This document shows positions 27,911-63,523 of a stretch of 64,000 nucleotides of DNA, piece by piece (position 1 is the first letter of the stretch; each line of letters begins with the position of its first letter). The DNA is from Octopus vulgaris (lineage: Eukaryota), in the NCBI GenBank assembly GCA_951406725.2, contig OX597814.1, forward strand, positions 75,206,001 through 75,270,000, given 5' to 3'. The position numbers and the translations under genes were made by a program. Under the pieces are notes generated by a model that was not told the origin of the DNA, did no database searches, and worked only from the letters and a program-made list of their open reading frames with translations.

Positions 27911-27941
<31 letters not shown>

Positions 27942-37646: not shown

Positions 37647-37679
<33 letters not shown>

Positions 37680-40560: not shown

Positions 40561-41460
40561 CATATGTTGCTTCAGATCTTCTCATTCAAGGATGTAAAAC
40601 AAAACATTAAATTGTACCATACCACTGGTGTAATGTGGGATATTGTTGAATCTGTCCAATGTAATTATTCTGTACTACCAATTATCTATAGCACTCTCAC
40701 TTGACAATATCTATATAATGAGAGGTTTATTGGTGTCTCTGAGGAACCCACCATCACCCCTTGGTAATGCTAGTCATCATTCCCCTTTCTTCTAAGATAT
40801 TTATTGACATCTATCTTGCTCTCTTACCATTGCCATCTCTATAACTATCCATTTCTTATTCTCTCTTACTGATATCAGCTTGATACTGCTAGCCATCATT
40901 CCCCCATCACTCTCTTTTCTCACCTTCACAATGACTCTATGAACTTTTCATCCAATCATTGTTTCTTTCATCATACTCTCACTTATTTCGCTTCATCACC
41001 CAGTTCTTTCCTGCCATTGCTCTCTCTCTCTCTCTCTCTTCTGATAATATTGCTTTGAATGAACAGACAAGATAGAGCATGGAGAACTATTTGTTGAGTG
41101 AGGCATACAGCAACCTCACTAGAACTGGTGTCATGCAAGAAAAGCAATCAGTACATTCTGTAAAGTGGTGTGGTATTAGGAAGGGCATCCAGCAAAAGAA
41201 ATTAAGCCAAAAGTGGAACATATGAACAAGACATAGTCCTCAGCAACTGCTAGACTCACCCTATCCATAATGATTGGTTTCTTTACACACATACACAAAC
41301 ACACACTAAAATGATTATATGGGAAGTGAATTACAAGATCTTAGTATCCATACTAAAAACTTGTTTTAGAAAGTTAGAACAATCATAAGGTGAAGAATCA
41401 GTTGTTTAATTTAGTAGCTCTTCTTTTATAGTTTAGTATGCAAATGGAGATGGCACTAGA

Positions 41461-41501
<41 letters not shown>

Positions 41502-42610
41502 TTCATTTCAAAAAGTGGAGGGGGTGAAGTAAAAGTAGTTTTGTAATAGTGAAATCTAGATATTAGCAGACAAATTAGCTGGTAAGAATACACCAGAGGA
41601 AAACAATTTGCAGATGATGACAAGTGTTTGAATGAAGGATTGTATGCAATGTTTGCAGCAGGATTTAATTACAATACAAAGAAATGAGAAAGAGTGGTGA
41701 GTAGCAGAGATATGTATCCAGCAGATAGATTGAGGTCAGTGAGTTGTAATTAGTAAGTTCTGATGAAAAGATTGTTAGTGTAGCATTCAAAACTAAAGAG
41801 AGGAAACGAGAACAATATGCCATGGACTGTAGAATTTTCGGAATGTTGGAGCTTCTTAATTAACTGAATGATTTTCTTTTGAGTGATAGTTTAAAAATTG
41901 CACTAGACATATGAAATAGACTTCTATAGAGATAATTTTAAGAAAGGTTATAAGAGAAATTACTTAAAAGTATGAGTATTTATTAAATAGGTAACAGACT
42001 GAACTTTTGCAAGTCTCCTTAGGCTTTTAGCATTGTCTTTTACCTTGTAAGGGCAACAACTGTTTAAATCTCTTTTGTGCTATCATGGCAATGTTAAAGA
42101 TATGAAGCACCCAGATGTTGCAGGAGATAGTAATGTAATAAGTAAATAAGTATAATGAAGGTGGATTATCGACATTATTAGTTGTCTATGTTAAGCAGGT
42201 GTGTCATGAAATAGTTTTTCTTGAAAAACAAAAATTGTTTGCAATTGTGTGTAATTGAAGGGTACTGAATTTTTAAACACTATCAGTGGAAGAAGTAAAT
42301 ATTTTAGCTATGATTGTTAATATTACCACTGGTTACGATACTGAATGGAAGTAAACAATTGAAGAGTGCATTGCATGTAAATAAATTGGTGAAGATTCAT
42401 TAAGAGTATCATGTCTTTGTAATTTCCATTAAGATTTCATATTAACTGAACATGGTTAGAAAATACAATGGTAAGAATAACAAAAAAGAAAAGAAAGTTA
42501 TCAATGTATTATAGAAGCCACTGGTTGTTAGAACTGAATAACATTTAATAACTAGCTTTTAAAACTTAGCACTTTAAACAAACACTGAAAACTAATTTTA
42601 ATTAACTATT

Positions 42611-42666
42611 AATAAAAGATGGTTCAGATTTGAATCATCTGACTCAAACCTGAACCATCCTTTATT
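42611..42666 (-). repeat. 27-bp inverted repeat / hairpin
   Basis: aataaaagatggttcagatttgaatca-tc-tgactcaaacctgaaccatcctttatt, with three mismatches that are all G:U on the minus strand. Confidence 0.9.
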
Positions 42667-42878
42667 GCTTGATAAAATTAGTACCCCATCATACAGTCCA
42701 AAACATGGTTTCTGTTATCTCCTCATCAGAAGCATTGGGTGCATATTTAACAGGTCAAATATATTGAACCACTTCAATATATGAGTGAACATTTGCAAAA
42801 CAAAGCTAGTAAGGTATTAACAAACTATTCACAACTACAGTAAATATATTTTTGCTAAAATTAAAAAGAAATACTCAC

Positions 42879-42905
42879 AGTTTAGCACTGGAATTAAACG
42901 TTCCC
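42879..42905 (-). CDS. candidate 27-nt microexon of the GALNT stem region
   Basis: aatttttacag|GGGAACGTTTAATTCCAGTGCTAAACT|gtgagtat; phase 1-1, open frame ERLIPVLN. No homology support. Confidence 0.55.
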
Positions 42906-45900
42906 CTGTAAAAATTATGAATTAAGTAATCATCTAAAAAAAAACTGATTCTAATCTATGGAATTAGGACAGAACATTGTGTCCAAAAGAAATCTAAAAA
43001 TTGAATATATAACAAATAATACTGATTTCTTTTTGAAAGCATACAAGCTACAGTACAATTGATTAAACTGACCGCAATGTATAACAAGTAGATGACTGAA
43101 AATTAAAGAAAGGATTTGAGTTAAAGTAAAGAGGTGTAAATGTACTTGTTATTGTGACTTAGATCCAAGTCAGCCCTAACTGTGCAAATTCTATGGTTAA
43201 GGCAATTCAAACAATGACCATCCCATCTAATTTTCAGGAATTGAGTACCACAGACTAACTTGAGTCCATTTTTAAGATAGAAGAGTGTGGTTTGGGGAAA
43301 ATTTGGTGACTATTTTTAGTAAAATGAAGACTATGCAAGGCCTCCCTAAGCAATTTATTTAATACTTTTCTGCCTTTAATTTTCTGATGTAGGCTCAAGA
43401 CCAGAAAATTGGGTGGAGGTGAAACAGTGGAAAGAGATGAGCTGATTACATCCCCCACACCACTCACATTACTTGACTGGCACTTTATTTCATCATAACA
43501 CAAATTGTTGCTAACATTGGCTCAAGGCCAGAAATTTGGAAACAGGGATCCAGTTAATTATATCAACACCAGTACCTTCCTGCTAATTTATTTTATATAT
43601 CCATTATTTTCTCTTTTTTTTACAGTTAAATTCTCTTTCTAAAAATAATTAGAAATTGTATTCACCAGCGAATAATTGCAACCATTTGATTAATAACAAA
43701 ATCTAAATTTGAAGAGACCTTCAAATGACATCAGCATATAAAAATATAATTTTAATAATATTGGTATGATAATTATAAAACATGGAGCTGTATGTTTAGG
43801 CTTTATACTTTTAATGTATAATTTACATTATGAGTTGACTGACTCATCATCATGGTGGTTTGCTAGTCAAAGAATTAACAGTTCTTAAATGCAAATAGGT
43901 ACCAAGTTGAAGTATAGTACACCACTAAATATGTGGAAACTAAAATTGCTGTTAGATTCTTGTCCTGAGGAAGATACGTATTTCAATCACTTAAACTGTT
44001 TGGAAATTAGGATAAAATCAAACATATGACCCTCTTAATGGACTTGTTTATAAGCAGTTGGTGAAAGATTTTCATCAATTACACTCTAAATTAATTATTC
44101 TTGTAGTGTAATATTGTTTTTGTTTTCTTTAGCACCAGTTACTAAATAAAGAATTTATATCAAAAATATATAATGTATACAATAACCATCAAGAACAAAA
44201 AAAAAAAAAAACTATACTCCGAAATTAAAAATAAGGCACAGTCAAAAACTATAACAGAATAAGACTTATTTATACATAGTGAATAAAATCTAATTGAAAG
44301 GTGAAATGATTTCTGTTGATAAAGTGGATTCATTTTGAGTTAAATAGTTATTTGATCATCTAAACATGAAGAGAAGGATAGCATGTTTTATAACAAACTA
44401 GATCAAATTTTAACATTCCCCATTCAAACTGGTCAAGCTTGCAATTAAATCTACTTTTCTTATTTCTACTTTTTAAGATACTAATCCAACTGGAAATGAA
44501 TATACTTAAAGGTAACATATATGTAAACTCTTAATTATTATTTTCAATGCATATTGGATAGTAAATAGAGTATTTACTTTCTCTCTGCCTTTTGATGCCA
44601 ACTCACCTGACACCATGTTCTGGTTGTATGATACAAGCTTCAGGTTTTAAAGTGATCTAAAAACCTTTCAGCAAAATTTCATGTTAATTTATGTTTCAAA
44701 TACTAGCTTAATACTGGCAAAGTTATTTTACTAAATTCATTATTTCCAAATTAAAGTAAAGGCAGTGTATTTCAACAGAAATATAGTAACAAACTGATTA
44801 AGCATTTTAATTAGACAACTTTATAGGACTTTGTAATTTAAATTCTGATACATTTATGTTACTTATTTCATCAACTCAGTGGAATTAATTTGGTTATGCA
44901 AAGTACTGAAAGAGAGCATTGTGATATAGAAAATCTCCAAGTCATGGGCTCATGCATAATGTGCCACCAATAAAATTCATTTTTATATCTCTTTCTAAAA
45001 TATAGAGAGATTCATATCATGTTCAGAAAATGTACAACTATTTGGTTCTATACCATTTATATTAATACTGTTGTATTAATATTTTCTCAACCTATTTATG
45101 AACCATTTAGCTGAAAAATAACAATAGCTGTTGTCAGTCAGTTGAACCTAATCTAGCAGGGTTATGTTCTGTCCCATGACATAACACAATGACTAAAACA
45201 TTCAATACATGAGCATTTGGTCAATAATCCTATGCAACAATGACACAACTGTAAATTTTATATAATATGCATGTATAATTGAAGTCATTCAAGATATAGT
45301 AACACTCTTGTAAATGCATGAGTTTTCTATTATTGACAAAAATTACTTTTGAATAATCTCTCGCAACATATTCTTACAATATAATAAATTAAAGCTGCAT
45401 TAACAGTGTTTTGTTTCAATGCTATGCTGTACTAAAGTGTATATATATAGACTGTGTAGACAGATTGTAACATTTTGTCTTTTTATACAATATAACTGTG
45501 CAGAGAAGGGACGGATCAACTGGAGTAGTTTTTAATTTATATATTACTGATATGTTAATAGCATTTTATTTCACTGCTACATTGTATTAATCAAAGTAGC
45601 TATGAAGTAATGTCATATAAGTAAATCTAATGAGCTAATTCACCCAAGTCCTTAGTAATAGTGAAGGTTCCAAAGAGAGTACTTAGTCACTGAAGAAATC
45701 CCAACAGAAGATTAAAACTAGTCCAGTTCATCCCTCTTTTTCCATTGTATAAAAAGACAAGATATTCTGTCTATTAATAATGGCTAAAATGTACAGATAT
45801 ATTTTTCAGGACATATAGTATTAGAATATAGTGTAGGAACTTTCCATCCTATAAATATTTTCCAGAGAATGTTTTTGGAGTAAAGGTAAAAATTGTAGCT

Positions 45901-45989
45901 TCACAAGTCACAGACAATTGTGAAGATGGTGCTTAAATTTGGATTCAATAGCTATAAGACATGGAGGGATAATTTATTTCTCAATAATG

Positions 45990-47420
45990 ATGAAAGGCAA
46001 TGGGATTTGAATTCATAAGAAATACCACAAGGCATTTTGTTAAAAGAGCTAACGATTCTGCCAGTTTGCTGGTCTTTGTTTCAAATTAAAGAACAAAGCC
46101 AGGAATTTTAAAGGACAGGTTTAGACATTACCATTGATACCAGTAATGCATATAATGTTCCTTGGTAAATCTGGCAAATTTTCCGAAGAAATCAAGGTAA
46201 CTGAGATTTATAAAGTATCATAACACCAGAAATAATGAAATGCTTGTGGTGGGTGTAAGGTGACAGCCCCTAAAACATTTTACTTGTATAATAATTTATG
46301 GAAGGAAATCCAAAACTTAGTTCACCTTCTTGCTATCTACAAACATCAAATTCTTTAAAATCCAACAACAAAAGATTTATAAAAATATTTTTAAAAAATA
46401 GAATAAATAATAAATAGTAGCTGATGATGTACCACAAACCTATTTTTTGTAATATGCAACTGAAATGATGAGAAAATATTGAAAAGTGGTGAAAAGAACA
46501 TCAACAGCAGCAGGATTTGAACTCTGAATTCAGAGAAAGGAAGTTTAATACCATTAACATTTAACTCAATGCATGGGTAATTCTGTAGCAGTAGTAATGT
46601 TGCTAACAGGCATATGGCCTCAAATTTAAAGACAGGGGTTACTCAATTAAATTGACTTAATACTTAACTGACACTTTGACTTCGTGAAGGCACATGGCTT
46701 AGTGTTGGGATTACAATCATGAGGTAGTGAGTTCAATTCCTGGACGGGGCTGTGTGTTGTGTTCTTGAGCAAGATACTTTATTTCAGGTTGCTCCAGTTC
46801 ACTCAACCGTAGAAGCAAGTTGCGATGTCACTGGTGCCAAGCTGTATCAACCTTGCCTTTCCCTTGGATAACATTGGTGACATGGAGAGGGGAGGCTGGT
46901 ATGCATGGGCAACTGCTGGTCTTCCATAAATAGCCTTGCCTAGACTTGTATCTTGGAGGGGAACTTTCTAGGTGCATTCCCATTATCATTTATGACTGAA
47001 GGGGGTCTTTACCCTTTTTTACTTTGACTTTATAACTCAAAACATAAAGAGCCAGAACAAATAACACATGGCCTTGTGTCTAATGCTCTGATGATGCTGA
47101 CAATCCTCCACCTTACTAATGGTTTTGATAGTATTGACTAACCCATTCTACACTGCCTTGTACCAGCAATTTTAAGGGGAACAGGCCAGTCAATACCACT
47201 GACCCCGATACTTGACTGGTACTTTATTTTATCAACCCTCGAGGGATGAACAGCAAAGTTAACTTTAGAGATTATTTGCACTCAGAACACAAAGATCCAG
47301 AAGAATTTTTGTTTACTGCTCTAACAATTCTGCAAGCTTGTCGAACCATTAGAGTGTATAAGATCAGCAATTTTGAGGGGGAAGTGTTAGTCAATACCAC
47401 TTAACCTCAGTACTTAATGA
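45990..47420 (-). mobile_element. cluster of decayed minus-strand SINE copies (family of 34870)
   Basis: Repeated gaccccgatacttgactggtactttattttatcaaccc...gatgaa...tttgaactc motifs; the best copy is 47160-47345. Confidence 0.65.
46683..47020 (+). mobile_element. tRNA-derived CORE-like SINE with 10-bp TSD
   Basis: tggcttagtg A-box, gagttcaattcc B-box and tgtgttcttgagcaagatacttta core. TSD actttgactt at 46673-46682 and 47021-47030. Inserted in an older minus-strand SINE relic. Confidence 0.85.
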
Positions 47421-47604
47421 TAATAATGATAATTAGTTATCAAATGCACTTACCCTGAATTATGTGTTTATCAAGTATATAGAACTTAATGACAAAAACT
47501 TGAAAACAAAACAAAAAAAAAAAACGAAAAACAAAAGCCCAACCAAAAATCCTCATTGATAGAAAAGAGAACTGTATTCAAAAGTTTAAAGTAACGTTTC
47601 TTAC

Positions 47605-47631
47605 CTTCAATAAGTTTCTCAATTTTAAAAT
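47605..47631 (-). CDS. candidate 27-nt microexon of the GALNT stem region
   Basis: tctaatttctattctgtacttaag|ATTTTAAAATTGAGAAACTTATTGAAG|gtaagaa; phase 1-1, open frame FKIEKLIE, consensus AAG|gtaag donor. Confidence 0.5.
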
Positions 47632-48989
47632 CTTAAGTACAGAATAGAAATTAGATAAATCACCTGTTAACTTGTGTTACGTTGATAAGTTCTCAAAATT
47701 AAGAAAAAAGGAAAACAAAACTAAAAGAAAGTTTTTGCTTAACACTTATGTTTCTAAATGAGTATGTTGGAATATTACAAGAAAAGAGAAAAGTAATTAG
47801 GTATTTCTTTATGTCATACAACTAGTCTAATTATGAAACAGATTATATATTAAGATCATGAACAAATTTAAAACCAAGTTCAATATTGATAATAAAAAGA
47901 AAATTTAAACATTGTTTCAAAATTTACTAGATTTTCTTTATTTTTCAATTAAGACCAGTATGATATAAAACTAATACATCAAGTAATTAAAGACAGTGGG
48001 ATATGTATATTAAAAAACAACAAAAATATAATGATGATAATAATAATATTTGAATAACAAAAATACCACAAAAAAATCCAATACACTGATGTTCTTATTT
48101 AAAAGGAATACATTTTTCAAAAAATAACTAATCTGGTTTAAACTTGATTTAAAGGATTTTAAGATTTTTTTTTTGTTTTTCTCAGCTAATTGTTTGTTTA
48201 TTTATTTAGTCATTATGGAGACAATTCAGAACACCTGCTTTAATATTGTAATTAAATCTTTAATATGACGGAAGAATTTCTTCAGTGTTAAAATATAATT
48301 CCCCACATTTTTTTTATGTTTCTCGTTTAATTAATTTTTTTTTTTTTGGCTAAGATTTTCTTAAAATTTGCATCTATACCAAGAATTGTATTTAGTCCAT
48401 GCCCTGAAGCCTGTGCTTAATGTAACTACAATTCTCACCACAATCACATTTCTGACAATAATTAAAACTGAAACAGTTGGTTATTTAGTTCTGACAAACA
48501 ACTGTTAGAAGGAATAACAATTCCTACTGGAATCACATTATGCATGAGAAGTAAATGTTACCCATTTTCCTCAGATAAGGCATGGCCAAATTACTGGAAG
48601 TATGTTATATCTATTGTCTAAACAAACTGAACTATGAGAGCCATAATAATGCTACATTTTTTTCTATGATAGTGATAATATATTAAATGTTCATACATTA
48701 CATAAATAAGCATTAAAGATCTGAATTTTTGTTGTTGGTACAGATATATACACACACAATGTTTGCAATAGTCGACATACATGGCTGCTCACAACAGAGA
48801 ACATATTGATCATTGTCTGGTTAAATGCAGTAAAATTTTGCTTCTGTATTGTTGACATAAAATAATCAGAAAATAAAACTGCCATTGATAGCAATGAAAC
48901 TAATTTTTATCTAGACAGAAATTTGTATTAAAAATAGATACTATACATTTATTTATTTATGTGTGTGTCTGTATAAAAATGTGTGCACG

Positions 48990-49008
48990 TATGTGTGTGT
49001 GTGTGTGT

Positions 49009-49053
<45 letters not shown>
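48990..49053. repeat. (GT)n(TA)n compound microsatellite
   Basis: Seen directly; abuts the 5'-truncated RTE fragment. Confidence 0.95.
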
Positions 49054-49057
<4 letters not shown>

Positions 49058-49069
49058 TCTGTGTGTGTA

Positions 49070-50095
49070 TACAAGCCATGTACAAAGATGTAGCAAGTAA
49101 AATGAGAGTTAACAACAGTTTCAGTGATGAATGCAATGTGAAGGCAGGAGTCCATTGAGACTGTCCTCCCCAATTCATTACAGTCCTACAGGCCATAACA
49201 TGAGTTTGAAACTGGATGTCCATAAGAACTCTAGAATGCTGATGTTTTAGACTTCATAGCTGAATCTGTATTAGGTATTAGAAAGAAGCATGAAGCTAAA
49301 TCCAGAATCAAGAGGTCTTAAGGCAACCTAACAAAGATGAAATCTTTCATAAGAAAAAACCTGGTATCTTCAGGGAAATGGCATTGGTTGTTATGCATTA
49401 AAGAAGTAGGAATAAACTCCAAATGCTATACACAATGTAAGCTATAGAAATACAAGGGATGTAGTGGAACAGTACATACTATGAACACACAAGAAATAAA
49501 TTCTCTTAAATTCCTACATGACTCACTAGAAGTGATTAATATCTACCTAGAGGATCTAATTAGCAATGGAAATGTGAGCTCTGAAAGTATAGTAGCCAGA
49601 TTAAGAACAGGCTGGAGAAAGTACAAAGAGCTACAACCACTGTAGGCAAGAAAGGTCTTTTATTTCAGAGTGGAGGGTAGATTGTATGACATTTGTGTTA
49701 CAATTGTGATGCTGCATGGCAGTGAGACACAAGCCTTGATTGCAGAGGATTTGAGAAAACTGTAAAGAAATGAAGCTAGCATGTCCTGTTGGATGAGAAA
49801 TGTAAATGTACATGAACAACAGTGAAAATATACTGAGAGAAAAACTGGACATGAGAGGAAGCAGATGTAGTGTGCAAGAAAGTACTGGTATGGAGACTAC
49901 TATGGAAATGTGAGGACAGCTGTATAAAGAAGTGCTGATTACTTAATGTGGATGAAATTTATGGAAGAGGGAAACCCAGAAAGTCATGAGATGAAATGGC
50001 AAAAGCTGATCTCAGGAACTTGAACCCCATAGAGATGATGACAAAAAACTGGGATAACTGGTAAATATGGTTCTGAAGAAAACCCACTCACTTCA
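49070..50095 (+). mobile_element. RTE-clade LINE fragment (RT and C-terminus), degenerate
   Basis: QAMYKDVASKMRVNNSFSDECNVKAGVH, later YLEDLIS, VARLRTGWRKYKEL, MLHGSET and GRGKPRKS relics. Many stops and frameshifts. Confidence 0.85.
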
Positions 50096-51949
50096 ATGAA
50101 ACTGAGTTGGAAAGTACTGTGTGTGTGCATATATATATGCATAACTGGGCCTTTTCCCTTACTTTCTCCTCAAGACACTTCCGACTACCAATCATCTAAC
50201 TGCTGCTCTTCTTTGGTACCTCTTATTTCTTACCACATGGAGCCATTTCACTTGTTATCCATCCTTTATCCAGTCACTCTTCTTTCTACCCACCACATCA
50301 CATTGATCCTCCCCATCACTGAGCCACCAAATTACCTCTCCTTCACAACTCTCCTCATGTATTACACCTATCTCTCTCTCTCCCCCCAACTCTTGCAATG
50401 TATCCAACTAAATCTTCGCCCTCTTGTCCTTCTGTTGTCTATTATATCATTATTACTATTCTGCTACCTACTTCCCTTTTTTTCTGCACTGTCAATCATC
50501 TCCGACTCTGCACCTACTTCTACAAACCTTGTACTGTGCAAATCCACCAAAACTCCTCATCACGACTATTTTTATCTCTTTCTAGCTTCATTCACTCACT
50601 CCCCTCATCTCCTAGTATGAAGCTCCCCACCCCACCAGAGGAGGTGGGGACTGTAGTCTTGCAAATTACATAGCAACCGCACTAGTACTGGTAGTATGGA
50701 AAATGCACCCAGTACATATTGTAAAGTGATTGGTGCAAGGAAGGGTATTAGCTGCAGAAACCATGCCAAAGCACAATGATGTTGATATATATATATATTT
50801 CTCACAAAATTGTGTATGAAATAATGGCTGTAGTGGTTTAATTTTTTTCTTTGTTTTCACTTCCTGAAAATTAAAAAAAATTATTTCAATTTACTAAGAT
50901 TCTTAATTTTAAAAAAAAGCAAACTCACACTAGACAGAACAAAACTTTGTCTTCTTTATTGTTTTTTCAATTAAGAAAAATGTTGGCTGAATGTCTAAGT
51001 TCAAAACATGAAAACTGAAGACTTTATTATTATTTATTTATTGTCAGGTCACCCTTGAGCACTACTGGTAACATGTAACCTGGTACAACCTGTCGCATGG
51101 TTGGGTTGTCAGCGACTAAACTGGCAAAACCATCAAGTGAGGAGGGTGATTGTTGGACACCCTGTGGGATGAAAAATAAGCCCCATCAAAGGGCGGAAGA
51201 ACTACTGTGTAGTCAATGGTCAATTCAACAAGTACCTTGTTGCGGTGAAGTACCTGTGCTCTCCATTGACCCAGAGAGCTATGTTGGAGGGAGAGAAATC
51301 TTCAGGCAGGTCTTACCAGGCCAGACAGGTCGAAGGGTAGGAGACAGACAAAACCTTAATGACAGTAAACCGAAGCGTTGGCAGCAGGGTGTGGATTTAG
51401 TTATTGGCAGGACCTAACAGATCAGATTCCTGGCTTTGAACTAGCAGGATGTCATGCAGAGGATCTTGAATACAAGACAATGGATGAGACCCTAATATTT
51501 CCTAGTTAGATCGAAGCTGCGGGACCACATGGAGCAGCGCCCTGTGACTCCTATAGTATGTGCAACCAAAATCACTAATAGGGGTGTCCTGTGGGACGAC
51601 CTAGATGAGATGAGATTTTTATTAAAAATAATAGTTCTTGAAAAATTTAGAGGGTTTTTAAAAAGAAATTCATGGTTAAACAAATGTGTGCCCATATGAG
51701 TTTTAACAATGCAGTAACAACAACAATGATGTGAAGGAACAACATTAAGAGATTAAACACAATTCAGCAAATTACTTATTTTCTATGCAAGCACATAGCT
51801 CCTGTTCAAAAATTTAATAGCTCATGTTTCAAATAGAGATTCACCACTGAAACTGAGGAAGCCTACTTCACTGTGGTCTGTGTGAAAGATATATGGCTTT
51901 ACATCTTCATTTATATTGTCAGGTAGTAGGGTATTTTTGATGTCCTCAA

Positions 51950-53000
51950 ACACAGAGAGCTTCAATTTGTTCCTTGAAAAGGATGCTGTCTGTATGACCA
52001 TCCAGTGCAAATATGATGCAGCATTCTTTGAAAGACATTGCCACGATAATTTCAGAGAGGCTCTGCTAGACATCTATAGTAATGCGCTTCAATGCATGTT
52101 ACTATGGAAAAGATCTGATTGAGGAGTGTGACCTTTCGGAGCGATGGACTTGTGCCTTTCTGTCAGCATATGCTGAGTGATTGTCTTGCTTATACTGATG
52201 TCCAATGATTGTAGAATACTAGCAATCACATCAAGAATTATGGCAAAATCATTCATTAAGAATTTCAGTTGCCATTTCACATTAAGGTGTTAATGGCAAC
52301 TAAATGCACTACACCAGTAGGGACAGTTGTTTCAGCATATCTACATGTCATTTTGATCCATTCACTTAATTTTGTTTCAAACCTATACTTGTGGACACAA
52401 GCCTCTATTGCTTTTGGAAATATTGCTTTAGGCTGGCAGCATTTTTCTATCACTAATAATGGCTACTATCATTGTAAAATGCTTCTTTTTATTGCCAGTA
52501 ATATTGATGAGTCTTCTGGCCTTGAAATCAACTGTTTTTGTGTAGAGGATGCTAAAGATCAGTAGGTTATAATCTGCATTTACATTGTGTGATAGATTAG
52601 CTTCCTAATGTGCAAGTGATAAAATATTGACACTCCTCTAACTTCTCTTTTAAATCTGAATCAATTTTTGTAACATGTGAGTCTAGCAACACACCGACTG
52701 TTCATGTCATTCCATAAAGCACTGACTCTGCCAAATACTAATCTTGATGTCAGGCATTCTCTCTGAGACCTACAGTGGTTGAGTTGATTCTAATGCCAAC
52801 ACCACTAACTAAACTGTTCTTCCAAGTTCAGAAAGGCTACAGATTTCTCCAGTCTATCATCTTTGAGCTTCCTAAGCAGGATTTTTGTTTACATGCAATA
52901 GTAAAAAATGACAATGATGTTTACACATTTTACTTCTATAATAATGTAGCAATCCTTCTTTCAACAGGTTACATTTAATACATCACTTTTTGGCATGTGT
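51950..53000 (-). mobile_element. old pogo/Tigger-type transposase relic (CENP-B HTH plus DDE_1)
   Basis: Minus-strand relics CFME*HEQSVCC*THMLQKL (compare RFM.RH.LS.R.RT..QKLP), KTVDFKARRLINITGNKKKHFTMIVAIISDRKMLP (compare TV..KG.K.V.I.TTG.EK..FTV.L....DG.KLPP) and IASILQSLDISISK (compare TS.LQPLDV.INK). Ends not defined. Confidence 0.72.
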
Positions 53001-53840
53001 TCTATTTAGGCTAGAAAGAAACAAAGAGTTTGTCAACCATTTTATACAACTGCTCTATAGAGGAAACAACAGAGGTAGCTTGCATTAACCAGCACTGAAT
53101 ATATCCATGACCCTGATCATAATTTCTATAATGCTGACTTCAAAGCAGGTGCACTTTAATGGCCTAAAGTGGTGAAAATCAAAAGTCACTTTAAAATTTG
53201 CTTTCTTTTGCTTAGGGTGCATGAATTTTCTTGATATAACAAGATAAGTTGGTATGGACTCAAAATTTCATTCAGTACTTTATACAACAAGTACAATAAA
53301 TCTGCCTAAACGCTCCTTTACTCAAACACTGTAATGTTAATTCTCATCTTTGAAAGATGTCATTGCCTATAATTATTTAGTAATAAATAAATTCAGTATT
53401 TGTTAATATGAATGGGTCCATGCAAACCCCAAGTTATGTAAATGTTCTATTTTGATGCATACATTTACTGAGCTTTGTAAACAGTCTTCAATTTTCTTTC
53501 ATGGCTAAGCTTTTTAGAAGCATAACAAACACATACCACGATAAGTACACTAATATAGAATATTATATGGCCAAAAATTTTGTAAGAAACAATCAATATT
53601 AGAGTAGAAAAGTTAAAATTAGCAGATTAAATCAATGCCTTATAGTATTTAAGCATGTTGCACCATGTTCTGAATTCAACTCCCACTGAGCCTAATTTTA
53701 CCTTCTATCCTTATGGAGTTGATAAAATCACCAACATTCAAATTTTGCAGTTGAATGAATTGATTTGCAAATCTTTTGCTTTGTGCTGTGATGTGAAGTC
53801 ATCAAAGAAATCATCATTATTATTATTACTATTATTATTA

Positions 53841-54030
53841 AGGCAGCGAGCTGGCAGAATCATTAGCATGCTGGGCAAAATGCTTAGCAGTATTTTGTCT
53901 GCTGCTACATTCTGAGTTCAAATTCAAACAGATTGACTTTGCCTTTCACTCTTTTGGGGTTGATTAAATAAGTACCAGTTATGCATTTAATTCCCTCCTC
54001 CAAGTAGCCCTTGTAGCAAAAATTTGAAAT
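53841..54030 (+). mobile_element. tRNA-derived SINE (same family as 34870), between (TTA)n tracts
   Basis: aggcagcgagctggcagaatcattagc...gagttcaaattc...gcctttcactcttttggggttgattaaataagtaccagtt. More decayed copies lie at about 53620-53730 and 54043-54200. Confidence 0.85.
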
Positions 54031-54293
54031 TATTATTATTCATGCAGTGAACTGGCAGAAATAGTATTTTGTTATATTCATTTATATACTAAATTTTAAT
54101 CCAGCTGAGGTCAGCTTTGCCATTTAATCTTCCAGAGCCAATAATCTATGTACCAATTAAGTCTAGGACTCATTTAATTCATTATATCCTTTCTTAGCCT
54201 TATGCCACTGCTACTAAATGCTGGACTTTTGTACTTTCTTTCTCTTAATCTACATTTCTAATAATATTTGCCATTTAAGCTTTTCTATAAATG

Positions 54294-55184
54294 CGAGGAG
54301 GTACCCAAAAGAAACCGGAATTTTGCGATATTATTTTATTCACTTAGTTTTACATGTTTACACTTTTACCACCTTCAAAGTATTCTCCATTTGAAGCACT
54401 GCATCAGTCCAGATGCATTTTCCACTATTCAAAGCGGTCCTGGAACACTTGCGAAGTGATGCCTTTTAACGGTTTTGTCATTTTTTCTTCACCTCTTCCA
54501 CATCTGCAAATAGTACCAGCTTTCAACAGTGATGACTTTTGAAAAAGCGTTTGGATCAACTTGTAACTGTTCTTTCAGTTCACAACACGCATTCACTTGT
54601 AACTGCTTTTGATCTTCTGTGAGCAAGCAAGGCACAAATTTTACTGCAACACTTTCCATTTGCAATCCCTTGCTTAAAATTTGATAGGAGGAACTCCAGG
54701 ACACAGTTATATCAACAAGTTTGTCAATTATTCAGCGACAGTCCTCCACAATCAGTTCATGAATTTTCATGATGTTTCCATTTGTTCAGGAGGTTGACGG
54801 TCATCTTGAATGAGGTTGGTCTTCAAGCGACAAATGATCATTTGTAAAGCATGAAAACCACTTGTAAACATGTGTCTTTTACTCATGGCAGCATCCTTAT
54901 AAGTTGTTTGAAGCATGACAACTGTTTCAGCTACCGCTTTCCCCAGCAGAAAACAGGATTTCCTGAAAGCATGCTGTTCCTTCGTTTAAGCCATCACAAA
55001 AATTGACAAACGGGAGAAGCACAGCTAAACAAAATGCACCTCATGGCTGTAGGACTATACCTGATGATGCTGATTGGCAGACTGATGCTTGAGAGACATC
55101 AAGTGGCTTCTAGTAGCAGAAACTTGAACTACAATGGGCTTGTGCCACAGGGAACATTCCCAGTTACTTTTGGGTACCTTCATG
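54294..55184 (-). mobile_element. internally deleted mariner transposon
   Basis: TIRs cgaggaggtacccaaaagaaaccggaa and ttcccagttacttttgggtaccttcatg(ta). Relic KEQHAFRKSCFLLGKAVAETVVML (HTH) and VKFVPCLLTEDQK...KVITVESW (WVPHEL linker and first-D region), followed by a large deletion. Confidence 0.88.
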
Positions 55185-55309
55185 TACAGTCAAGGTTTGT
55201 AATGGGAAAACACTCTGTTCTATTGGAACATAAAGATCTTGCAAGAGAGCAGAGTCAACCTTAACAAACCAACCAGCCAAGGAGTTATTGTTGTTTAGTG
55301 GAAGCAGTG

Positions 55310-56255
55310 TACCAAAGAAAATCAAGATGTGGGAGAGAAATGTATGCAGAAGGGTGATGGCATGCTTGTATTTAGTGATTCTGAAAAGAAGAAGGCTTGG
55401 AAGTGTTTATGAAAGGTTATTAAATGTGGAGAATGTATGGAAATGAGAAGCTTCCTAATGTGATTTCAACAGGGGATTCAGTCATTTGTGTTGACAACAG
55501 TGTTATAGATAAAGTAATGAAGAAAATGAGATTGAGAAAGCCCCTGGTTCATCAAGAATCTTTGACAGGGAGCCCTACTAATGTGCTCTTTATAGGTCAG
55601 TAACTACAGGAGAAGTATTTAGCAAAAGATAAACCACTGTACTTATCATTTGTTAATCTGGAGAAAGCCTTTGACAAGGTGTCTTGATTTCCCTATTTGG
55701 TGGTGGCTGCTAAAGCTAGTGAGAGCTGTTCAAGCCATGTACAGAAATGCTGTTAGCAAAGTGAGAGTTAAATATGAGTACAGTAGTGAATTTAGTGTGC
55801 AGGTAGGAGTTCATCAGGGTTCACTTATCAGTCCCCTCCCATTTATAATACTCCACCAGGCTATAACAGATGAATTTGATATTGGTTGTGCATGAGAACT
55901 CCTCTACACTGATGACCTAGTTATTATAACTGAAAGTGTAGAAGAATTAGAATTAAATTCCAAGTATGGAAGCAAAACCTGGAATCAAAGGATCTTAAGG
56001 TTAACTTAGCACAAACTACAGTTCTAATTAGCAGGAAAACAGACAGAACATTAATCTCTGGGTAAATAACCCTGTTCTATATGTAGACAAGATGTGGGTA
56101 GAAATTCCATACAGTGTACTCAGTGCAAACTGCATGCCAAAGCAGACATAGAACATGGCAGAGCCCTCTTGCTCATTTGTTTGTTCTTGTCAAACTATCT
56201 AACCCATGCCAGTATGATAAAAGGGACATAGAATGATGATGCTGAAAATGATGAT
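55310..56255 (+). mobile_element. RTE-clade LINE fragment (RT core) fused to its 3' tail
   Basis: FVNLEKAFDK, LVRAVQAMYRNAVSKVRVKYEYSSEFSVQVGVHQGSLISPL and ELLYTDDLV. Ends in aacccatgccagtatg...(gat)n tail. Confidence 0.88.
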
Positions 56256-56920
56256 GAAATTTTACAAGTGCCAAAAGTAGATTCTGCAGTAAACTGTCTA
56301 TACTTCATGCGAAAACAGGAATACTTTGGTACACTGGAAATTTCAAACTGCAGTTGAAGCAGAATACTGATGCACGAGACAAACTAGATTGTAAAGCTGT
56401 TAGATAATAAAAGAATCCTTTAGCTGACAGAATAGATGTCTACATACGTCACAATACTGCATTTAATTGAAAAACTATCAATCTAATTCTTTGCAGAAGA
56501 GTTGGGTCCAGAATTCTTTCTATTAACTACTTTACATCACCACCACTGTACTGTTATGGACATTATGCCCACCATTTATATTCAATAGATATGTTTTGAG
56601 TAAAACTTAAGATGGGTTCTAAAACCCATTACATTATAGAGGGAACCACTAAAAATTCTACCCTTGTTTCTGGTGATGAGTACACACAGAACTTTAGAAT
56701 GGTCAATGATAACATTTTGAATTGAAGTCAAAATATGGCGATCTTGTAAATATTATCATCAGTTGTATAACGGAGATAAGAAAAAGTTAAGTAGATTCTG
56801 AATAGATGATTATTTATAAAAATTTACATGGTCACTCCTGTTTAGTTTAAGGGCAACCCTTATCAAGCAAGGCATTCTATTTGTAAACGTACTATCTTTT
56901 TATGGATATGTAAAATTAAA

Positions 56921-57106
56921 CCCTTTAGCATTCAGATTTCTCTGTCAAGTGTAATGCTTATTTACTCGTACTGATATCAATTAGTTATGATTATTTATTT
57001 TTAGAATAATATTGTAGGGTAAGTGTGAGAGGTCAGAGCTGGCCAGTTTGAAGATAAAAGAGGTGGATTATTTTGGCCAGATATGGCTGGTTTAAATGCT
57101 AAAGGG
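56921..57106 (-). mobile_element. MITE family A (TIR ccctttagcatt, TTAA-type target)
   Basis: ccctttagcatt...aatgctaaaggg followed by ttaa. Opposite-orientation copies at about 9543-9746, 31774-31993, 33218-33386 and 6606-6800. Confidence 0.85.
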
Positions 57107-59286
57107 TTAATATATCCTTTCCTTATTTAAGATAGTAAAGTATGATTTCAGAGTGACCTGACTGCTATTTCTGACAAGTTTAGTGACTGCAAAGAGGTTG
57201 CCTCATTGGCTGCCATATTTCAAACTCTGTCAGAGTTGACAATTTTTCCATCATGTAGTACTAAAAATAGTACTACAAGATGGTAGTGAAAATGGTGGTG
57301 AATCCATAAACATGTTGAATCATAAAGAAATCACTAAAGATTTTGTTTTCATGCAGTAAGCCATTTTAATCTATAACAAGAGTTGAATACATCACAGCAT
57401 ATTAACAGAACATTTCATTACTTTACAGTGCTGTCACTGCTTGCATTTGTCAGTACCCTTATCTGTTCTCTCAAAACATTCCTGTTGTAGCCATGATATT
57501 TTCTATTTTATTGTTCTGCAATCTACAATACAGTTAGCTCTTTTCCAACTGTATTGTGTAGATTGTAAAAGTTCCCAAATGTGTTTTGAACCGTGGTCCC
57601 TTAACTAGAAGATTCCATCCTAATGGCCATTGCTTTTCACTTTACTGTAATATCCTAATTAAAAGTATTAATTTACATACCACGCATAACAGACAATAGC
57701 ACAACATTAATGTCTATAATAGTTAATTCAAAAAACTGATTAAACATTTTCGGTTAACTCATTTAACAAAATTAATGAACTAGAGCTTTCTAAAGTCTGA
57801 TGGACATTTAATGCCTAATTCCTTGATCAATAAATTCCCAGAGTGATGAATAGATGAAAGATAATGTATGGTACATCTGTATAAATTAATGTTCCCTGTT
57901 ACTGTGTTTCCCATTAGCCCTTTCCATAGATAATCATGTCATGTTGTTACAGCCAACAATACGACCTACTCTGCAAATCATAAGTCTATTATATATAGAT
58001 TTATGCTCTAACCATCATCTAGATACTCTTTATTCTTTTTCACTATACATGTACTAAGGATTGACTTCAGTTCATGAATACCAGTATTATATTCACATAG
58101 AAGAGCAATTGATTATACTTGCTTGCTAAAATAAGAACTGACAGTATACTCTTTGAACATGAACATAGCTCATCATTGTAATGTGTTAGATTTAAAAAAA
58201 AAAAAAGGCAATCATTTGTGTTAAGCAAGCATGGTGGTGGGGGGAGGTACTAAGCAAAAATAAATCACCAGGAGTGAAACCACTGAATCAAGGGGGCCAT
58301 TTCAAGCCTGCTGGATCTGCTAGAAATGACAGCTAAAACTTCTAACTATCACACCCGACAATCTTTTTAAAGATAATATGGTCCTAGATGTACTGTATGT
58401 TAATAAAAATGTTATGCCCAAGGCAAACATAAGGGCCTTTAAGTAAAAATATTTCTTATGAAGATGAACCTGGCGTTAAAGTTGTTTTATAAATCCCACC
58501 AAAACATTAGATAATATAGTTTCAGATATTCCACAAACGATGGTATGGTCATATTTGTATCATATTTGATTATAAGGTCTGTTCTACCAGGGTTAACTTG
58601 CAGCTAAACAATACTTTGAAGTAGTATCCATATTGAGCACAATAACAAATTTTTTAAAATTAAATTTCAGCAAAGATATTTACAAGTTAGATTACAAAAT
58701 GCACAGTTCAGTTTATTTTCTATGACAAAATTTCACCTTAATTTATTTCTTCCTAATAATACAACCTAATTAGCAGGTTTCTTAAACTTTTCAATAGGAT
58801 AGTCTATACACCATTTACAGAAGTCTTTGTAAAACATCTCTCAATTTCTAAATTGCTTTTGTATCACTTTAAAGAGTAGCTTCATACAAGCATTTCCAAT
58901 AATTAAATATTTTACTTTGATAAGAACATAATTAAATTATGAAAGAAAAAGTATCTAAATAACTACTATCACTATAATCATGAGTTGTATTGTGAGCAGC
59001 AAAAATCCAAACAATACCATATTTATCCACTCTCAATATGTTCTGGCAAGTTCAGATGGAAACATGCTGATCACCGATCCTTTTCATCAGAGAGTATCGC
59101 CTACCTTTAGATGATGTATGTTCATAACACACACAAGAGTGCACTTTGCACCAAAAGCCAACATGAGAGATTTTTTCATGGTAACTAATGCAGTAAAGAT
59201 TGTTCTAACAGAACAACCACTTTTATGTGGGGATAAATACACAATTCATTGATATAAGGGTATTTTAAGACTCCATATTTTTCCAG

Positions 59287-59698
59287 CTTATAGTGTGCCC
59301 CCTCAGTCAAATTGCCCCCACCTTGCACCTGCAATCAATGTATCTAACAAGAGTACTGGCTCTTGTTTAAGGAAATCAACAAACAAATTATTTGCTAATG
59401 CATGCTGAACAACTGATACTGATTCATGAGATGCATGCAGAACAACAAGAATCCTAACAATAATGTATCCATTCTCATATTCAAGTTTAAATCTGCTAGA
59501 ATATATTGAGATTGAACAGATATGTTCTTGCTTGGATTTTTGCTGTTCAGTGTGCAACACATGAATTAATATAAGTTTGGCAGATATCAGCATGCATCAC
59601 CAAATAATTGGTTAGCTGATTTCTATAAATAAAGGGCATGTACTTTTGTTTGATTTATTGATCCAGGGGCAGCTTTGACTAAGGAGACACACAATAAG
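59287..59698. mobile_element. MITE-like element with ~33-bp imperfect TIRs
   Basis: Left cttatagtgtgccccctcagtcaaattgcccc; the right end reverse-complemented reads cttattgtgtgtctccttagtcaaagctgcccc. Confidence 0.6.
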
Positions 59699-59851
59699 GT
59701 TGAAACACTGGTGTCTCAACGCTCTCTTACGTCAATGAATTATGTATGTTATGAACACACATTGTCTATAGAGAGGAGGTGTTCTCTGATGAAGGAAAAC
59801 AATAGTGGTCAGCATATTCATGTTTGAATCTGTCAGAATGTACTGAGAATG

Positions 59852-60042
59852 TAAGGTGGCGAGCTGGTAGAAACGTTAGCACACCGGGCGAAATGCTTAG
59901 TAGTATTTTGTCTGCCATTACATTCTGAGTTCAAATTCCATCCTTTCGGGGTTGCACTGGGGTAGATATAATCGACTTAATCCGTTTGTTTGTCTTTGTT
60001 TGTCCCCTCTGTGTGTAGCCCCTTGTGGGTAGTAAAGAAATA
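59852..60042 (+). mobile_element. young tRNA-derived SINE with 17-bp target-site duplication
   Basis: A and B boxes present, CpGs retained, tail ccccttgtgggtagtaaagaaata. TSD agaatgtactgagaatg at 59835-59851 and 60043-60059. Confidence 0.9.
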
Positions 60043-60916
60043 AGAATGTACTGAGAATGGGTAGATATATTACTATAACCATTATACTGCTAATTTCGTT
60101 TACCATGCTGATAATATATAAACATTTTCCCTATTGGCAAAAACAACAACAACAATCCATGTTTCTGCATATGTAGTATGTTCTTGTACATAGAGAGGGT
60201 TCGACTGCTTGTCCTGGCATTTTAAAAAGTCTGTTTTATCTTCATTCTCTTCATTAATCTTATGGACTTCAGATGATTATGAAGAATGATTAGCTAGCAT
60301 TTCATAGACATTTGTAGTCTAATCTGACATTGTGACAAGGCTAGCTTTTGCACAGTTTCCATCCATTCAATTTCACTCAACAAGACTCAAATCAACACAA
60401 GACTATAACAGAAAATACTTGTTCAAGATGTTGTGCAGTAGGATTGAACTCAGAAACTCGTGCTTTCTAAGCAAACTTAACAAAATGGTCATGCATCTAC
60501 AACTATGGGAATGGTAGTCACACCTATACTGCATATCCTTGCAATTTTAAAGTTTTATATTTGGAAAACTTTTCAGTTTCTGATTAAAATTTTTTTTGTT
60601 ATTACTTTTTTTCCTTAAAATAAAATCAAGAGTTGCTTCATTTCCATATATCAAAATTTTTAAAAGAACCAAAATATTCCACATCTCCATAACTTACTCA
60701 AAAATATTAACTAAACACAGAATGTATAACTAAAACACAAAGATAAAAAAAAAACAAATTGCACCAATACAATTTGGAATTTAAAAATAAAAACAAAAAA
60801 AAAATGCACTAATATCCAGACTTTATATACATGGATGTATTAAAATATTCCCCAAAAAATTTTCCAAGCATTTTACTTATTTCTTTTAGTACCAGTATAA
60901 ATGAATTTCGGCTTAC

Positions 60917-60946
60917 CTCTTTTTAACAACTTATGTTCAGTCTTAT
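60917..60946 (-). CDS. candidate 30-nt microexon of the GALNT stem region
   Basis: Long poly-T tract then acctccttggtcataag|ATAAGACTGAACATAAGTTGTTAAAAAGAG|gtaagc; phase 1-1, open frame KTEHKLLKR. Confidence 0.5.
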
Positions 60947-63343
60947 CTTATGACCAAGGAGGTAAAAAAAAAAAAATGCCAATTTAAATAAAATTGTGCA
61001 ACAAAAATAATAATAATAATAAAAACCCAAAAAGACAACAGTAAACATATATGGGAAAAACATCATATGGTGAGAATACACACATACCAATATATTAAAG
61101 ATACTTTTTTTGTTTGTTTGTTTCTTCTGTAAAGCTATGCTTTACAAATAGATTTGCTGACATGCATTCACAGAGAGAGAAAACAGTGATATACAATGAT
61201 ATTGGGAGAGTGGGGTCAGGGGGGGGGGGGGTGATCCAGCTGAAGAACACAATACTGAAAATCAATAACTCTTATGGAAAAAGGTAAATAAACGTCTTTG
61301 AATTGGTGAACAACCATATGTTAGAACTCTGTTCCATCTAGCTATGGTTACATTCTTACAAAATATAAAAGCTGTATTCTCAACAGGAAATTTTCATATC
61401 TATTTATATGAATATTTATGTGTGTGTTTCAGCATATATATAATATATACACTCTCACATACATGTATACGTACTGACTATTATGCTAAAAGATAGTGAG
61501 AAAAGTGTTATTTTTTTGCCTAATATATCACATACAGGTTGGGACAATTAGTTATTACACCAAACATTCAACAAAGCACAAAAAAAGTTGTTTCAAATCT
61601 ATACTGCTACCCAGTAAAATTTAACATTGACAGTTAGGAAAGAAAAAAGTGTACATGCATGTTATTAACTAGGGTGAAGACTATGGATAGACAATAAAAA
61701 TACCTACAGTGCACATCTAATCTAATTGGCTTGATATGACAACAAACTAGAGAAGGGTAGGGATCATGAGAAAATAACAGGGGTAGTACAATATGTAATA
61801 GGGAGAAGAGAGTGTGTGGCAGGGTAAGAGTCAAAGTAATGAACATATAATTTAGAAATATATATATATATATATGAACACATAGGGAAAATATCCTCTA
61901 AAATACAAAATCAAATGAATAAAAAAATACATATAATCTTTACGAAATTTAAGAGAATATAAATACATTTTTATCTGTACACAAAATAAATTCTCTTTGA
62001 AAGTATGTCAAAATTTCTAAAAGGTTGTGTAGCACATCTAAAAATACCAAATACCAGATTACTATTTATAACTAGGGATTAAATGTAACTATAGAAACAG
62101 CAGAGATTAATTGCAAGCAGAATCAGTAGCCTAAAACATGAGTTAGTATTAATATCATACAAGAAGAAAGGAAATATATATTTCTTAAACTATTAAACTT
62201 TCAAAGTGTCTACCACAATCAATCCAGGTAGTGAGTCGTTTCACCAACTAATTGATCTATTTATTTGAAATAAAAGGCTCGTTAGTATTTTAAAATATCA
62301 ATAATTTATTTCTTGTTATTGTTTTATAATATTATATTGAACATTAAAATCCACCAATATCCCCAAAAAAGAAGAAAACTACAGTGACAACTAATGCAAA
62401 AAATTAAAAACTTAACAAAACAAAACAAAAATTAAAGCAAGCAAAACAAAAATAAGAAGCAAGACATAAAACATCTGAGAAGGGATGCAACAATCCTGTC
62501 GATAATATTGATTTCTTCCTTAAGTACAAAGGGAAAAGTGAATATAGTTAACTGAACTGACCCCAGCTTCTTAACAGTACTATTTTATTGACTCTAGACA
62601 GATGAAAGACACAGCTGATGTCAAAAAGCCTTGAACTCCAATTGTGGTGACATGCTGATAATGCTAATCCACCCCATACTTACAGGCTACTATTCTAAAT
62701 GAAAAGCTATCTTAAAAGATATTTGGATTTTGCAGCAGTGTTCAGTGAAAACTGACATTTTAAACTAGCAAAATACTGAATAGATTTTTGAAAACAATTG
62801 CTTGCAGCCTGAGTGTAGTTAAAGAAAGGTAATGATCCAGGAAGATGAGTCATAACCAGTTCCAGCGAGTGGATGTGGTTATTCAGACTATGGCACTAAT
62901 GCTCTTTGGAAAGTATGGAACTCATAATATTCAATTCATTCTCAGGAGTCAATGAGAAAAATAAACCATCAATAGATATCACTAATTATAAGAAGTCAAG
63001 CAGAAAATGCAAGAATTTCATTTACAAAAAGAAAATTGAAATTTAATTGAAATAAACAAGCTTATTAGTATTACTATATTTACATTTTATAAATACACCA
63101 ATGTTAATAACTACCAAAATTGAAAAAAATAAAACAAAACAAAAACTTCAAGTCAAGTAATACAGAATGAATGGCACAGAGAGGAGAGGAAAAAGAGTAG
63201 AAAAGATAAGGAGACAGTGGGGAGATACACACACACACAGATATAGTAGGTATGAAGTTGGAAGACAAAAAAGGGACACAAAACCAGTCCAACTGGGCAT
63301 CTTTCCAAGTATGATTATGCACATAAAAATGCAAATCAAATGC

Positions 63344-63344
<1 letters not shown>

Positions 63345-63375
<31 letters not shown>

Positions 63376-63388
63376 GCAAGTGTGTGCA

Positions 63389-63429
<41 letters not shown>

Positions 63430-63475
63430 AAAATATACATACATATTAGTGTTTGTGTGTATGTGTGTATATATG

Positions 63476-63523
<48 letters not shown>

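What the first reader, a model, noticed from the sequence alone, without database searches (positions are those of the whole stretch)
42879..60946. Candidate array of symmetric phase-1 microexons building a modular GALNT stem
Seen: the 22203 exon needs a phase-1 partner, and I found no large coding exon in the 42 kb upstream. Three tiny minus-strand segments (30, 27 and 27 nt) each have a strong donor (gtaagc, gtaaga, gtgagt), an AG with a pyrimidine tract, a length divisible by 3 and an open phase-1 frame. Spliced in order they read [44 protein letters not shown]. Established: ppGalNAc-T stems are poorly conserved, set the reach into the Golgi lumen and can be cleaved; frame-preserving microexons are often neural in bilaterians. 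Inference: combinatorial skipping could tune stem length and include or drop a dibasic KR site. Caveat: such patterns arise by chance in AT-rich introns.
Basis: partly seen in the sequence, partly recalled or inferred. Interest (0 to 1): 0.75.

Follow-up and report, generated by a model that had tools for sequence, protein, structure and literature searches.

The report
Octopus GALNT1 stem microexon cluster
Three tiny exons, plus a fourth just outside the window, match optional stalk pieces in database isoforms of an octopus Golgi sugar-transfer enzyme, and one of them likely adds a protease site that would let the enzyme be cut off its membrane.

Summary
The pattern alone is not above chance (8 candidates, shuffles 5.65±2.4), but they are almost certainly real exons. 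NCBI isoform models of Octopus sinensis and O. bimaculoides carry all three peptides: 12 of 15 listed isoforms hold a microexon, in 10 stem versions. A fourth, 9-nt exon and the true phase-1 partner (the transmembrane exon) lie 4.8 and 11.5 kb beyond the window. They are optional: contig lengths in 3 of 4 probable RNA runs fit the all-skipped form exactly. They sit in the disordered stem. Exon 1 ends H/R-K-L-L-K-R, a furin-type site; exons 0+1 together build an N-K-T sequon. Unrelated optional inserts occupy the same junction in bivalves and a nemertean. Shedding is untested, site enrichment is not significant (p 0.11), and no neural signature was found. Real and already in automated annotation; not found in print; function open.

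The parts
22204..64000 (-). Window's share of the 53.3-kb first coding intron that holds the microexons. It runs on past the window end, where two more parts lie: ME0, a 9-nt phase-1 microexon (V-L-Q; G000:C1:75274838-75274830, 4.8 kb past the end), and the first coding exon with tail, transmembrane helix and phase-1 donor (G000:C1:75281770-75281521, 11.5 kb past the end).
   Evidence: ME0 peptide in 6 of 15 listed isoforms, all O. sinensis; contigs of 4 of 4 runs stop matching at the transmembrane donor and continue
60917..60946 (-). ME1, 30-nt phase-1 microexon, KTEHKLLKR; ends in a furin-type H-K-L-L-K-R motif; gives N-K-T when preceded by ME0
   Evidence: full form in 6 of 15 isoforms (as KTERKLLKR in both other species), a 12-nt short form in 1; junction motifs
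60934..60934 (-). A in the His codon of ME1. The other two species have Arg here; the short ME1 form of O. sinensis ends just before it, so a G there (inferred, DNA not seen) would make an internal GT donor that this genome lacks.
   Evidence: inference
47605..47631 (-). ME2, 27-nt phase-1 microexon, FKIEKLIE; likely mutually exclusive with ME3
   Evidence: in 6 of 15 isoforms, FKIGKLIE in O. bimaculoides
42879..42905 (-). ME3, 27-nt phase-1 microexon, ERLIPVLN; after ME1 it builds R-G-E-R
   Evidence: in 3 of 15 isoforms, identical in both other species
22038..22203 (-). Constitutive exon (166 nt, phase 1 to 2): end of stem and start of the catalytic domain
   Evidence: held by 19 public runs
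7744..7913 (-). Next constitutive exon (170 nt), start of the GT-A catalytic domain
   Evidence: 100% identical to P0131 over residues 140-195

Best explanation
Four frame-preserving microexons in the first coding intron of the octopus GALNT1/13-type gene are optional pieces of the enzyme's predicted unstructured stalk, and ME1 likely works as a splice-controlled furin-type cut site that would release the enzyme from the Golgi membrane when it is included. Shown here: the exons and their frame; their use in ten stem combinations in isoform models of two named Octopus species; the junction-built motifs (ME1 ends H/R-K-L-L-K-R; the residue after it is V, D or G depending on the next exon; ME0+ME1 make N-K-T). 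Inferred: all four are skipped in the commonest transcript; ME2 and ME3 exclude each other by regulation, not by spacing or frame; ME1 followed by ME2 or ME3 is cleavable while ME1 alone is poorly cleaved because Val follows (this P1' rule is recalled, not from a call); the ME0-dependent N-glycan could tune cleavage. Odds: exons real and alternative 0.95; ME2/ME3 exclusive 0.7; cleavage switch as main function about 0.35.
For: Isoform models from two species, and two annotation rounds for O. bimaculoides, place the same peptides at the same junction; 23 of 25 internal residues match O. bimaculoides, which split about 34 million years ago (PMC10700109 passage). All 16 combinations keep the frame open. 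Contigs of 3 of 4 runs go on for exactly 1253 letters past the transmembrane donor, the distance to the lectin-exon branch in the all-skipped form; included forms give 1262-1319. AlphaFold leaves residues 33-111 at pLDDT under 50; Pfam domains start at 176. PMC2820236 (passages) lists furin sites with no basic P4 and a basic or His P5/P6 (HVISKR, RGVTKR, LRIRKR); both ME1 alleles fit that class. Short optional inserts at the same junction in Magallana gigas (RAHAKR) and Tubulanus (RHRR) also carry such sites.
Against: No inclusion junction was seen directly in sequence data: laid nothing and one search showed no loose end at the donor among the rows printed. The isoforms are automated models. 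Site enrichment in optional inserts is not significant: 3 of 8 insert sets against 4 of 25 constitutive stems, Fisher p 0.11, shuffle p 0.113; five bivalve inserts have no site. Under that K/R-only rule this genome's His allele scores no site. Human GALNT2 is shed by SPPL3 at the membrane helix, not by a stem convertase (PMC8918473 passages). The microexons change faster than the rest of the protein (2 of 25 against 1 of 589, p 0.005; against the constitutive stem 1 of 57, p 0.22). ME2+ME3 absence in 15 isoforms has p 0.18 under independence, and 19 of 34 cluster members were not listed. ME2 and ME3 have no explained role beyond setting the residue after K-R.
Confidence: 0.35

Rival explanations
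1. Tolerated, near-neutral exon gain: the long first intron lies over a disordered stem, so any frame-preserving small exon is harmless, arises repeatedly and lingers at low inclusion without a specific job.
For: The intron holds several look-alike candidates by chance. The skipped form fits 3 of 4 runs. The peptides change faster than the rest of the protein. Inserts at this junction in other lineages are unrelated to the octopus ones (best of 12 octopus-bivalve pairs 13 of 1000 shuffles). None is in the listed Sepia-type (8 members) or Argonauta (1) proteins.
Against: Three exons kept with the same ends and 23 of 25 residues over about 34 million years; all four are multiples of three; the pattern of combinations looks ordered (ME2 or ME3, not both).
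Confidence: 0.3
2. Stem-length, localisation or partner tuning: inclusion lengthens the stalk by up to 22 residues and adds short amphipathic segments and an N-glycan, changing reach, Golgi position or binding, without cleavage.
For: Stem 59 to 81 aa. Luminal stems help localise human GalNAc-T7 and T10 (review PMC8840164 passage). The ME0+1+3 stem has a high helical moment (1 of 500 shuffles) and ME0+3 too (7 of 500). ME1 and ME3 junction peptides score above all but 2 of 388 pseudo-exons against the motif that ends the same exon in 22 other lophotrochozoan proteins. Several bivalve inserts are long and Pro-rich, as spacers would be.
Against: The same review passage says GalNAc-T1, the closest solved relative, localises by tail and membrane helix. 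ME1+2 and ME0+1+2 stems show no raised moment (245 and 106 of 500). ME2 fails the motif test (56 of 388). These tests were post hoc and the motif null does not control for protein-like composition.
Confidence: 0.25
3. Neural microexon programme of the SRRM3/4 (eMIC) type: the exons are switched on in neurons as part of the bilaterian programme, whatever they do to the protein.
For: Sizes 9-30 nt and 3n. Splicing is highest in octopus neural tissue (PMC9699675 passage). One TGCATG element 9 nt downstream of ME0.
Against: No TGC within 35 nt of the acceptor in 4 of 4 exons, whereas eMIC exons are enriched for it (PMC8797185 passage). TGCATG occurs 0.68 times per kb in this intron, so one hit is weak. 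No tissue data were obtained.
Confidence: 0.2
4. Chance splice-like patterns copied into automated gene models.
For: The pattern count is within the shuffle range; no inclusion junction was seen directly; the one O. vulgaris record has none.
Against: Models of two separately assembled species agree on three exons of 27-30 nt and on junction residues that the window's DNA predicts exactly; gene predictors do not-30 nt exons in 53-kb introns without spliced reads (own knowledge).
Confidence: 0.04

Closest known systems
NCBI isoform models of Octopus sinensis (XP_029633230.1, XP_029633241.1 and others) and O. bimaculoides (XP_014774705.1, XP_052825040.1, XP_014774711.1) 'polypeptide N-acetylgalactosaminyltransferase 1'
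   Same: Same gene, same junction, same peptides.
   Different: Automated models with no description or function. This genome has His where they have Arg in ME1; the one listed O. vulgaris record has no microexon.
Drosophila pgant9 exon 8A/8B switch (PMC6115407, passages)
   Same: Alternative exons change a ppGalNAc-T. The octopus gene also has a pair of alternative lectin exons.
   Different: pgant9 swaps a lectin alpha loop that gates the active site; here 9-30 nt exons edit the stem in combination.
SRRM3/4- and eMIC-dependent neural microexons (PMC8797185, passages)
   Same: Very short, 3n, cassette exons; long pyrimidine tracts in ME0 and ME1.
   Different: No UGC near the acceptor; clustered in one intron over a disordered stem; tissue unknown.
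Shedding of Golgi glycosyltransferases, e.g. SPPL3 release of GALNT2 (PMC8918473, passages)
   Same: A soluble enzyme is released from its type II anchor.
   Different: SPPL3 cuts in or next to the membrane helix and needs no optional exon; here a stem site would exist only in some splice forms.
Schistosome micro-exon genes (MEGs) (recalled, no call)
   Same: Runs of symmetric tiny exons that vary a protein by skipping.
   Different: In MEGs microexons make most of a secreted protein; here four exons add at most 22 of about 613 residues in the listed models of a conserved enzyme.

Membership tests
ppGalNAc-T (GALNT1/13-type) | Type II anchor, stem, GT-A domain, ricin-type lectin | tested here: met
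   Pfam PF00535, PF02709, PF00652 on 4 of 4 isoforms; helix 4-32 and disordered 33-111; best solved relative GalNAc-T1, E 2e-254
Alternatively spliced symmetric microexons | AG/GT ends, 3n length, open frame, same phase both sides | tested here: met
Alternatively spliced symmetric microexons | Included and skipped forms both exist | tested here: met
Alternatively spliced symmetric microexons | Junction reads for inclusion in this species | tested here: inconclusive
   laid nothing; one search printed no loose end at the donor (404 rows not shown); only contigs were available
eMIC/SRRM4 neural microexons | UGC close to the 3' splice site | tested here: not met
   0 of 4 exons have TGC at -35 to -3
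eMIC/SRRM4 neural microexons | Neuron-specific inclusion and eMIC dependence | not testable with these tools
   runs are coded, without tissue; contigs give no inclusion level
Mutually exclusive exon pair (ME2/ME3) | Never both included | tested here: inconclusive
   0 of 15 isoforms, p 0.18; longest labelled isoforms too short to hold ME1+2+3; 19 members unseen
Mutually exclusive exon pair (ME2/ME3) | Origin by tandem duplication, steric spacing, frame-based removal or docking/selector pairing | tested here: not met
   DNA similarity 252 of 300 shuffles as high; 4.7-kb spacing; no perfect complementary match of 11 nt or more within 400 nt of the two exons; double inclusion stays in frame
Furin-type convertase substrate | Arg P1, basic P2, basic P4 or compensating basic/His P5-P6 | tested here: met
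   H/R-K-L-L-K-R against the examples in PMC2820236; motif match only
Furin-type convertase substrate | Actual cleavage and release | not testable with these tools
   needs expression and N-terminal sequencing

The most novel reading that the evidence does not exclude
A splice-coded shedding switch for an O-glycosylation initiator: microexon junctions write a small code in the stem (ME1 supplies a furin-type site, the next exon sets the residue after the cut, ME0 adds an N-glycan ten residues upstream), so a tissue picks anchored or secreted GalNAc-T by splicing. Oyster and a nemertean gained convertase-type sites independently in the same intron, making it a hotspot of convergent control.
Probability: 0.2. 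Interest if true: 0.72.

Novelty: new variant of a known kind. Interest (0 to 1): 0.42.

Why it matters
The best-described splicing of a ppGalNAc-T that I found acts on the lectin domain (pgant9). A combinatorial microexon set in the stem is a different lever, and the isoforms give a ready-made natural series to ask what a glycosyltransferase stem does: reach, position or release. If ME1 controls cleavage, splicing would set how much O-glycan initiation a cell keeps in its Golgi. If it is neutral, the case still shows one junction gaining unrelated optional inserts in octopus, several bivalves and a nemertean. The exons themselves are already in automated annotation, which caps the surprise.

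Tried and rejected
Direct junction evidence: no RNA holder listed on record, all runs are contigs; the first laying gave 0 contigs in 4 of 4 runs, no proof of absence; the second gave no printed loose end at the donor; run X2's contig goes on 2105 letters and could not be assigned to an isoform. My first chance scan required C or T before AG and so missed ME1 and ME2; redone. A search for short proteins sharing the stem found no candidate. Whether squids, cuttlefish or Nautilus have homologous microexons stays open: a wider stem-only search was not run. Rejected: ME2/ME3 tandem duplication, docking/selector pairing, UGC code; homology of octopus inserts to bivalve inserts; significant enrichment of convertase sites. 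The crinoid insert lies at a different-looking junction and was left out's count of 8; the partial Sinanodonta model was not paired and was left out too. A-to-I editing restoring Arg and the internal donor at 60934 was considered and not tested; PMC9699675 says editing very rarely alters splice sites. Not in print: ten searches, of which 18, 19, 25, 28 and 38 bear on this; none listed a paper on these exons. GALNT and pgant have 0 hits in the main text of the 20-species splicing preprint that includes O. bimaculoides, but its supplements were closed and may list them. PMC9699675: 3 supplementary files searched without a hit, file 2 not searched. Three papers were not held. Earlier scan notes returned nothing.
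Full report
Setting. The window is G000:C1:75206001-75270000 of a 2.8-Gb genome. Its minus strand holds part of a polypeptide N-acetylgalactosaminyltransferase gene. The exon at 22203-22038 finds an Octopus sinensis GALNT1 isoform first, and the transmembrane exon and the exon at 7913-7744 are identical in protein to the O. sinensis models. Pfam gives GT-A and ricin lectin domains; the best solved relative is GalNAc-T1.

Observation. All three segments are as described: ME1 60946-60917, ME2 47631-47605, ME3 42905-42879, phase 1 on both sides, open. By itself this is weak. A filter tuned to pass the real exons finds 8 open 3n candidates in the 53.3-kb intron, against 2 on the other strand and 5.65±2.4 in 60 shuffles.

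What makes them real. I listed 15 of the 34 members of the Octopus cluster (searches gave the same 15): 10 O. sinensis, 4 O. bimaculoides, 1 O. vulgaris. Twelve carry a microexon peptide exactly at the junction N-K-I-P-N / L-I-P-H. Full ME1 is in 6, ME2 in 6, ME3 in 3; both species have all three. The junction residues are those the window's DNA predicts. [quoted passage not shown] These are automated models. I infer read support from how such models are built (own knowledge); I did not see inclusion reads.

More parts. Six O. sinensis isoforms have V-L-Q before the other exons. No fitting 9-nt exon is in the window; exactly one lies 4.8 kb beyond it, with a 0.95 pyrimidine tract (ME0). The transmembrane exon ends in a phase-1 donor 11.5 kb beyond the window and is the true partner of the 22203 exon. 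One O. sinensis isoform has a 12-nt ME1 that stops after K-T-E (P0134). Both other species have Arg next, this genome has His (CAT). A CGT codon would give an internal GT donor; this genome lacks it (inference; their DNA was not seen).

Optional, and mostly skipped. Laying contigs on the 22203 exon gave nothing. On the transmembrane exon, contigs of 4 of 4 other runs stop matching at the donor and go on. Three go on for exactly 1253 letters. That is the distance to the phase-0 branch between the two alternative lectin exons in the all-skipped form; the 9 included O. sinensis isoforms checked give 1262-1319. So skipping of all four is likely the main form in those runs. The runs are only guessed to be RNA and carry no tissue label.

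Order among them. Ten stem versions occur. ME2 and ME3 are together in 0 of 15. On counts alone that has p 0.18. Isoform labels fall with length in 10 of 10 O. sinensis and 4 of 4 O. bimaculoides models (current labels), and the longest (613, 608 aa) cannot hold ME1+2+3 (619, 617). I put exclusivity at 0.7. It is not explained by duplication, spacing (4.7 kb), frame or base pairing, so it would have to be regulatory.

Where they act. AlphaFold on a 53-row alignment leaves residues 33-111 at pLDDT under 50, with a weak helix on ME2. The stem grows from 59 to 81 residues. Splicing all 16 combinations in memory shows motifs built at junctions: ME0+ME1 give N-K-T, the transmembrane exon plus ME1 gives D-K-T; ME1 ends K-L-L-K-R followed by V, D or G; ME1+ME3 give R-G-E-R. 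PMC2820236 (passages) lists furin sites without a basic P4 in which a basic or His residue at P5/P6 compensates (HVISKR, RGVTKR). Both ME1 alleles fit. That an aliphatic residue after the cut blocks furin is recalled, not from a call.

Other animals. The same junction takes optional inserts in Magallana gigas (38 and 52 aa), Crassostrea virginica (34), Mytilus (22), Mercenaria and Ruditapes (35), Dreissena (41) and Tubulanus (6). None was seen in the gastropod, chiton, Sepia-type or Argonauta proteins printed. The octopus inserts show no convincing similarity to the bivalve ones. Furin-rule sites occur in 3 of 8 insert sets against 4 of 25 constitutive stems; p 0.11 by two tests. Suggestive, not significant.

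Mechanism. I commit to a splice-controlled cleavage site as the likeliest single function (0.35). Neutral tolerance (0.3) and length, position or partner tuning (0.25) are close rivals; a neural programme (0.2) can go with any of them but lacks the UGC mark in 4 of 4 exons (PMC8797185 passage). Against cleavage: human GALNT2 is shed by SPPL3 at the membrane helix (PMC8918473 passages), and the peptides change faster than the rest of the protein. Against localisation: GalNAc-T1 uses tail and helix (PMC8840164 passage).

Known or new. The exons are in public models, so they are not new to databases. Ten full-text searches listed no paper on them; supplements of the 20-species splicing preprint (passages) were closed, and one file of PMC9699675 was not searched. 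The nearest described case, pgant9, switches a lectin loop (PMC6115407 passages). PMC5288242, PMC12649860 and PMC8616257 (passages) added nothing decisive. All papers were seen as listings or passages only. Verdict: a real, correctly spotted microexon cluster, a new variant of a known kind, interest 0.42.

Noticed in passing
G000:C1:75113132-75112998 (L008) and 75110340-75110209 (L007), about 93-96 kb past the window's low end: The same gene has two tandem phase-0 exons (135 and 132 nt) for the middle lectin repeat, used one or the other in P0121 and P0123; Sepia records show both forms, and Argonauta P0003 and Sepia P0192 models include both. Resembles the pgant9 lectin switch.
   Followed up: partly
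window 60934 (minus strand): His codon in ME1 where two other Octopus species have Arg; likely removes the internal donor behind the short ME1 isoform. Fixed change, polymorphism or an A-to-I editable site is not known.
   Followed up: partly
window 47498-47454 and 30262-30212 (minus strand): Two further open 3n exon-like segments (45 nt with a 0.9 pyrimidine tract and gtaagt, 106 nt downstream of ME2; 51 nt). In none of the 15 listed isoforms.
   Followed up: partly
proteins P0136, P0140, P0057, P0208, P0220, P0209, P0200: Unrelated or weakly related optional inserts at the same stem junction in oysters, mussels, clams, zebra mussel and a nemertean; a conserved motif like F-L-x-K-I-L-P-K ends the upstream segment in 22 non-cephalopod proteins and is degenerate in cephalopods.
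   Followed up: partly
window 15152-15412, 18148-18843, 19461-20512, 54489-54985, 55623-55895: Open frames that by eye resemble mariner-type transposase and LINE reverse-transcriptase fragments in the introns (labels recalled, not tested).
   Followed up: no
L006:1838-1830 and 9 nt downstream: A TGCATG (RBFOX-type, recalled) element sits just downstream of ME0; background 0.68 per kb in this intron.
   Followed up: partly
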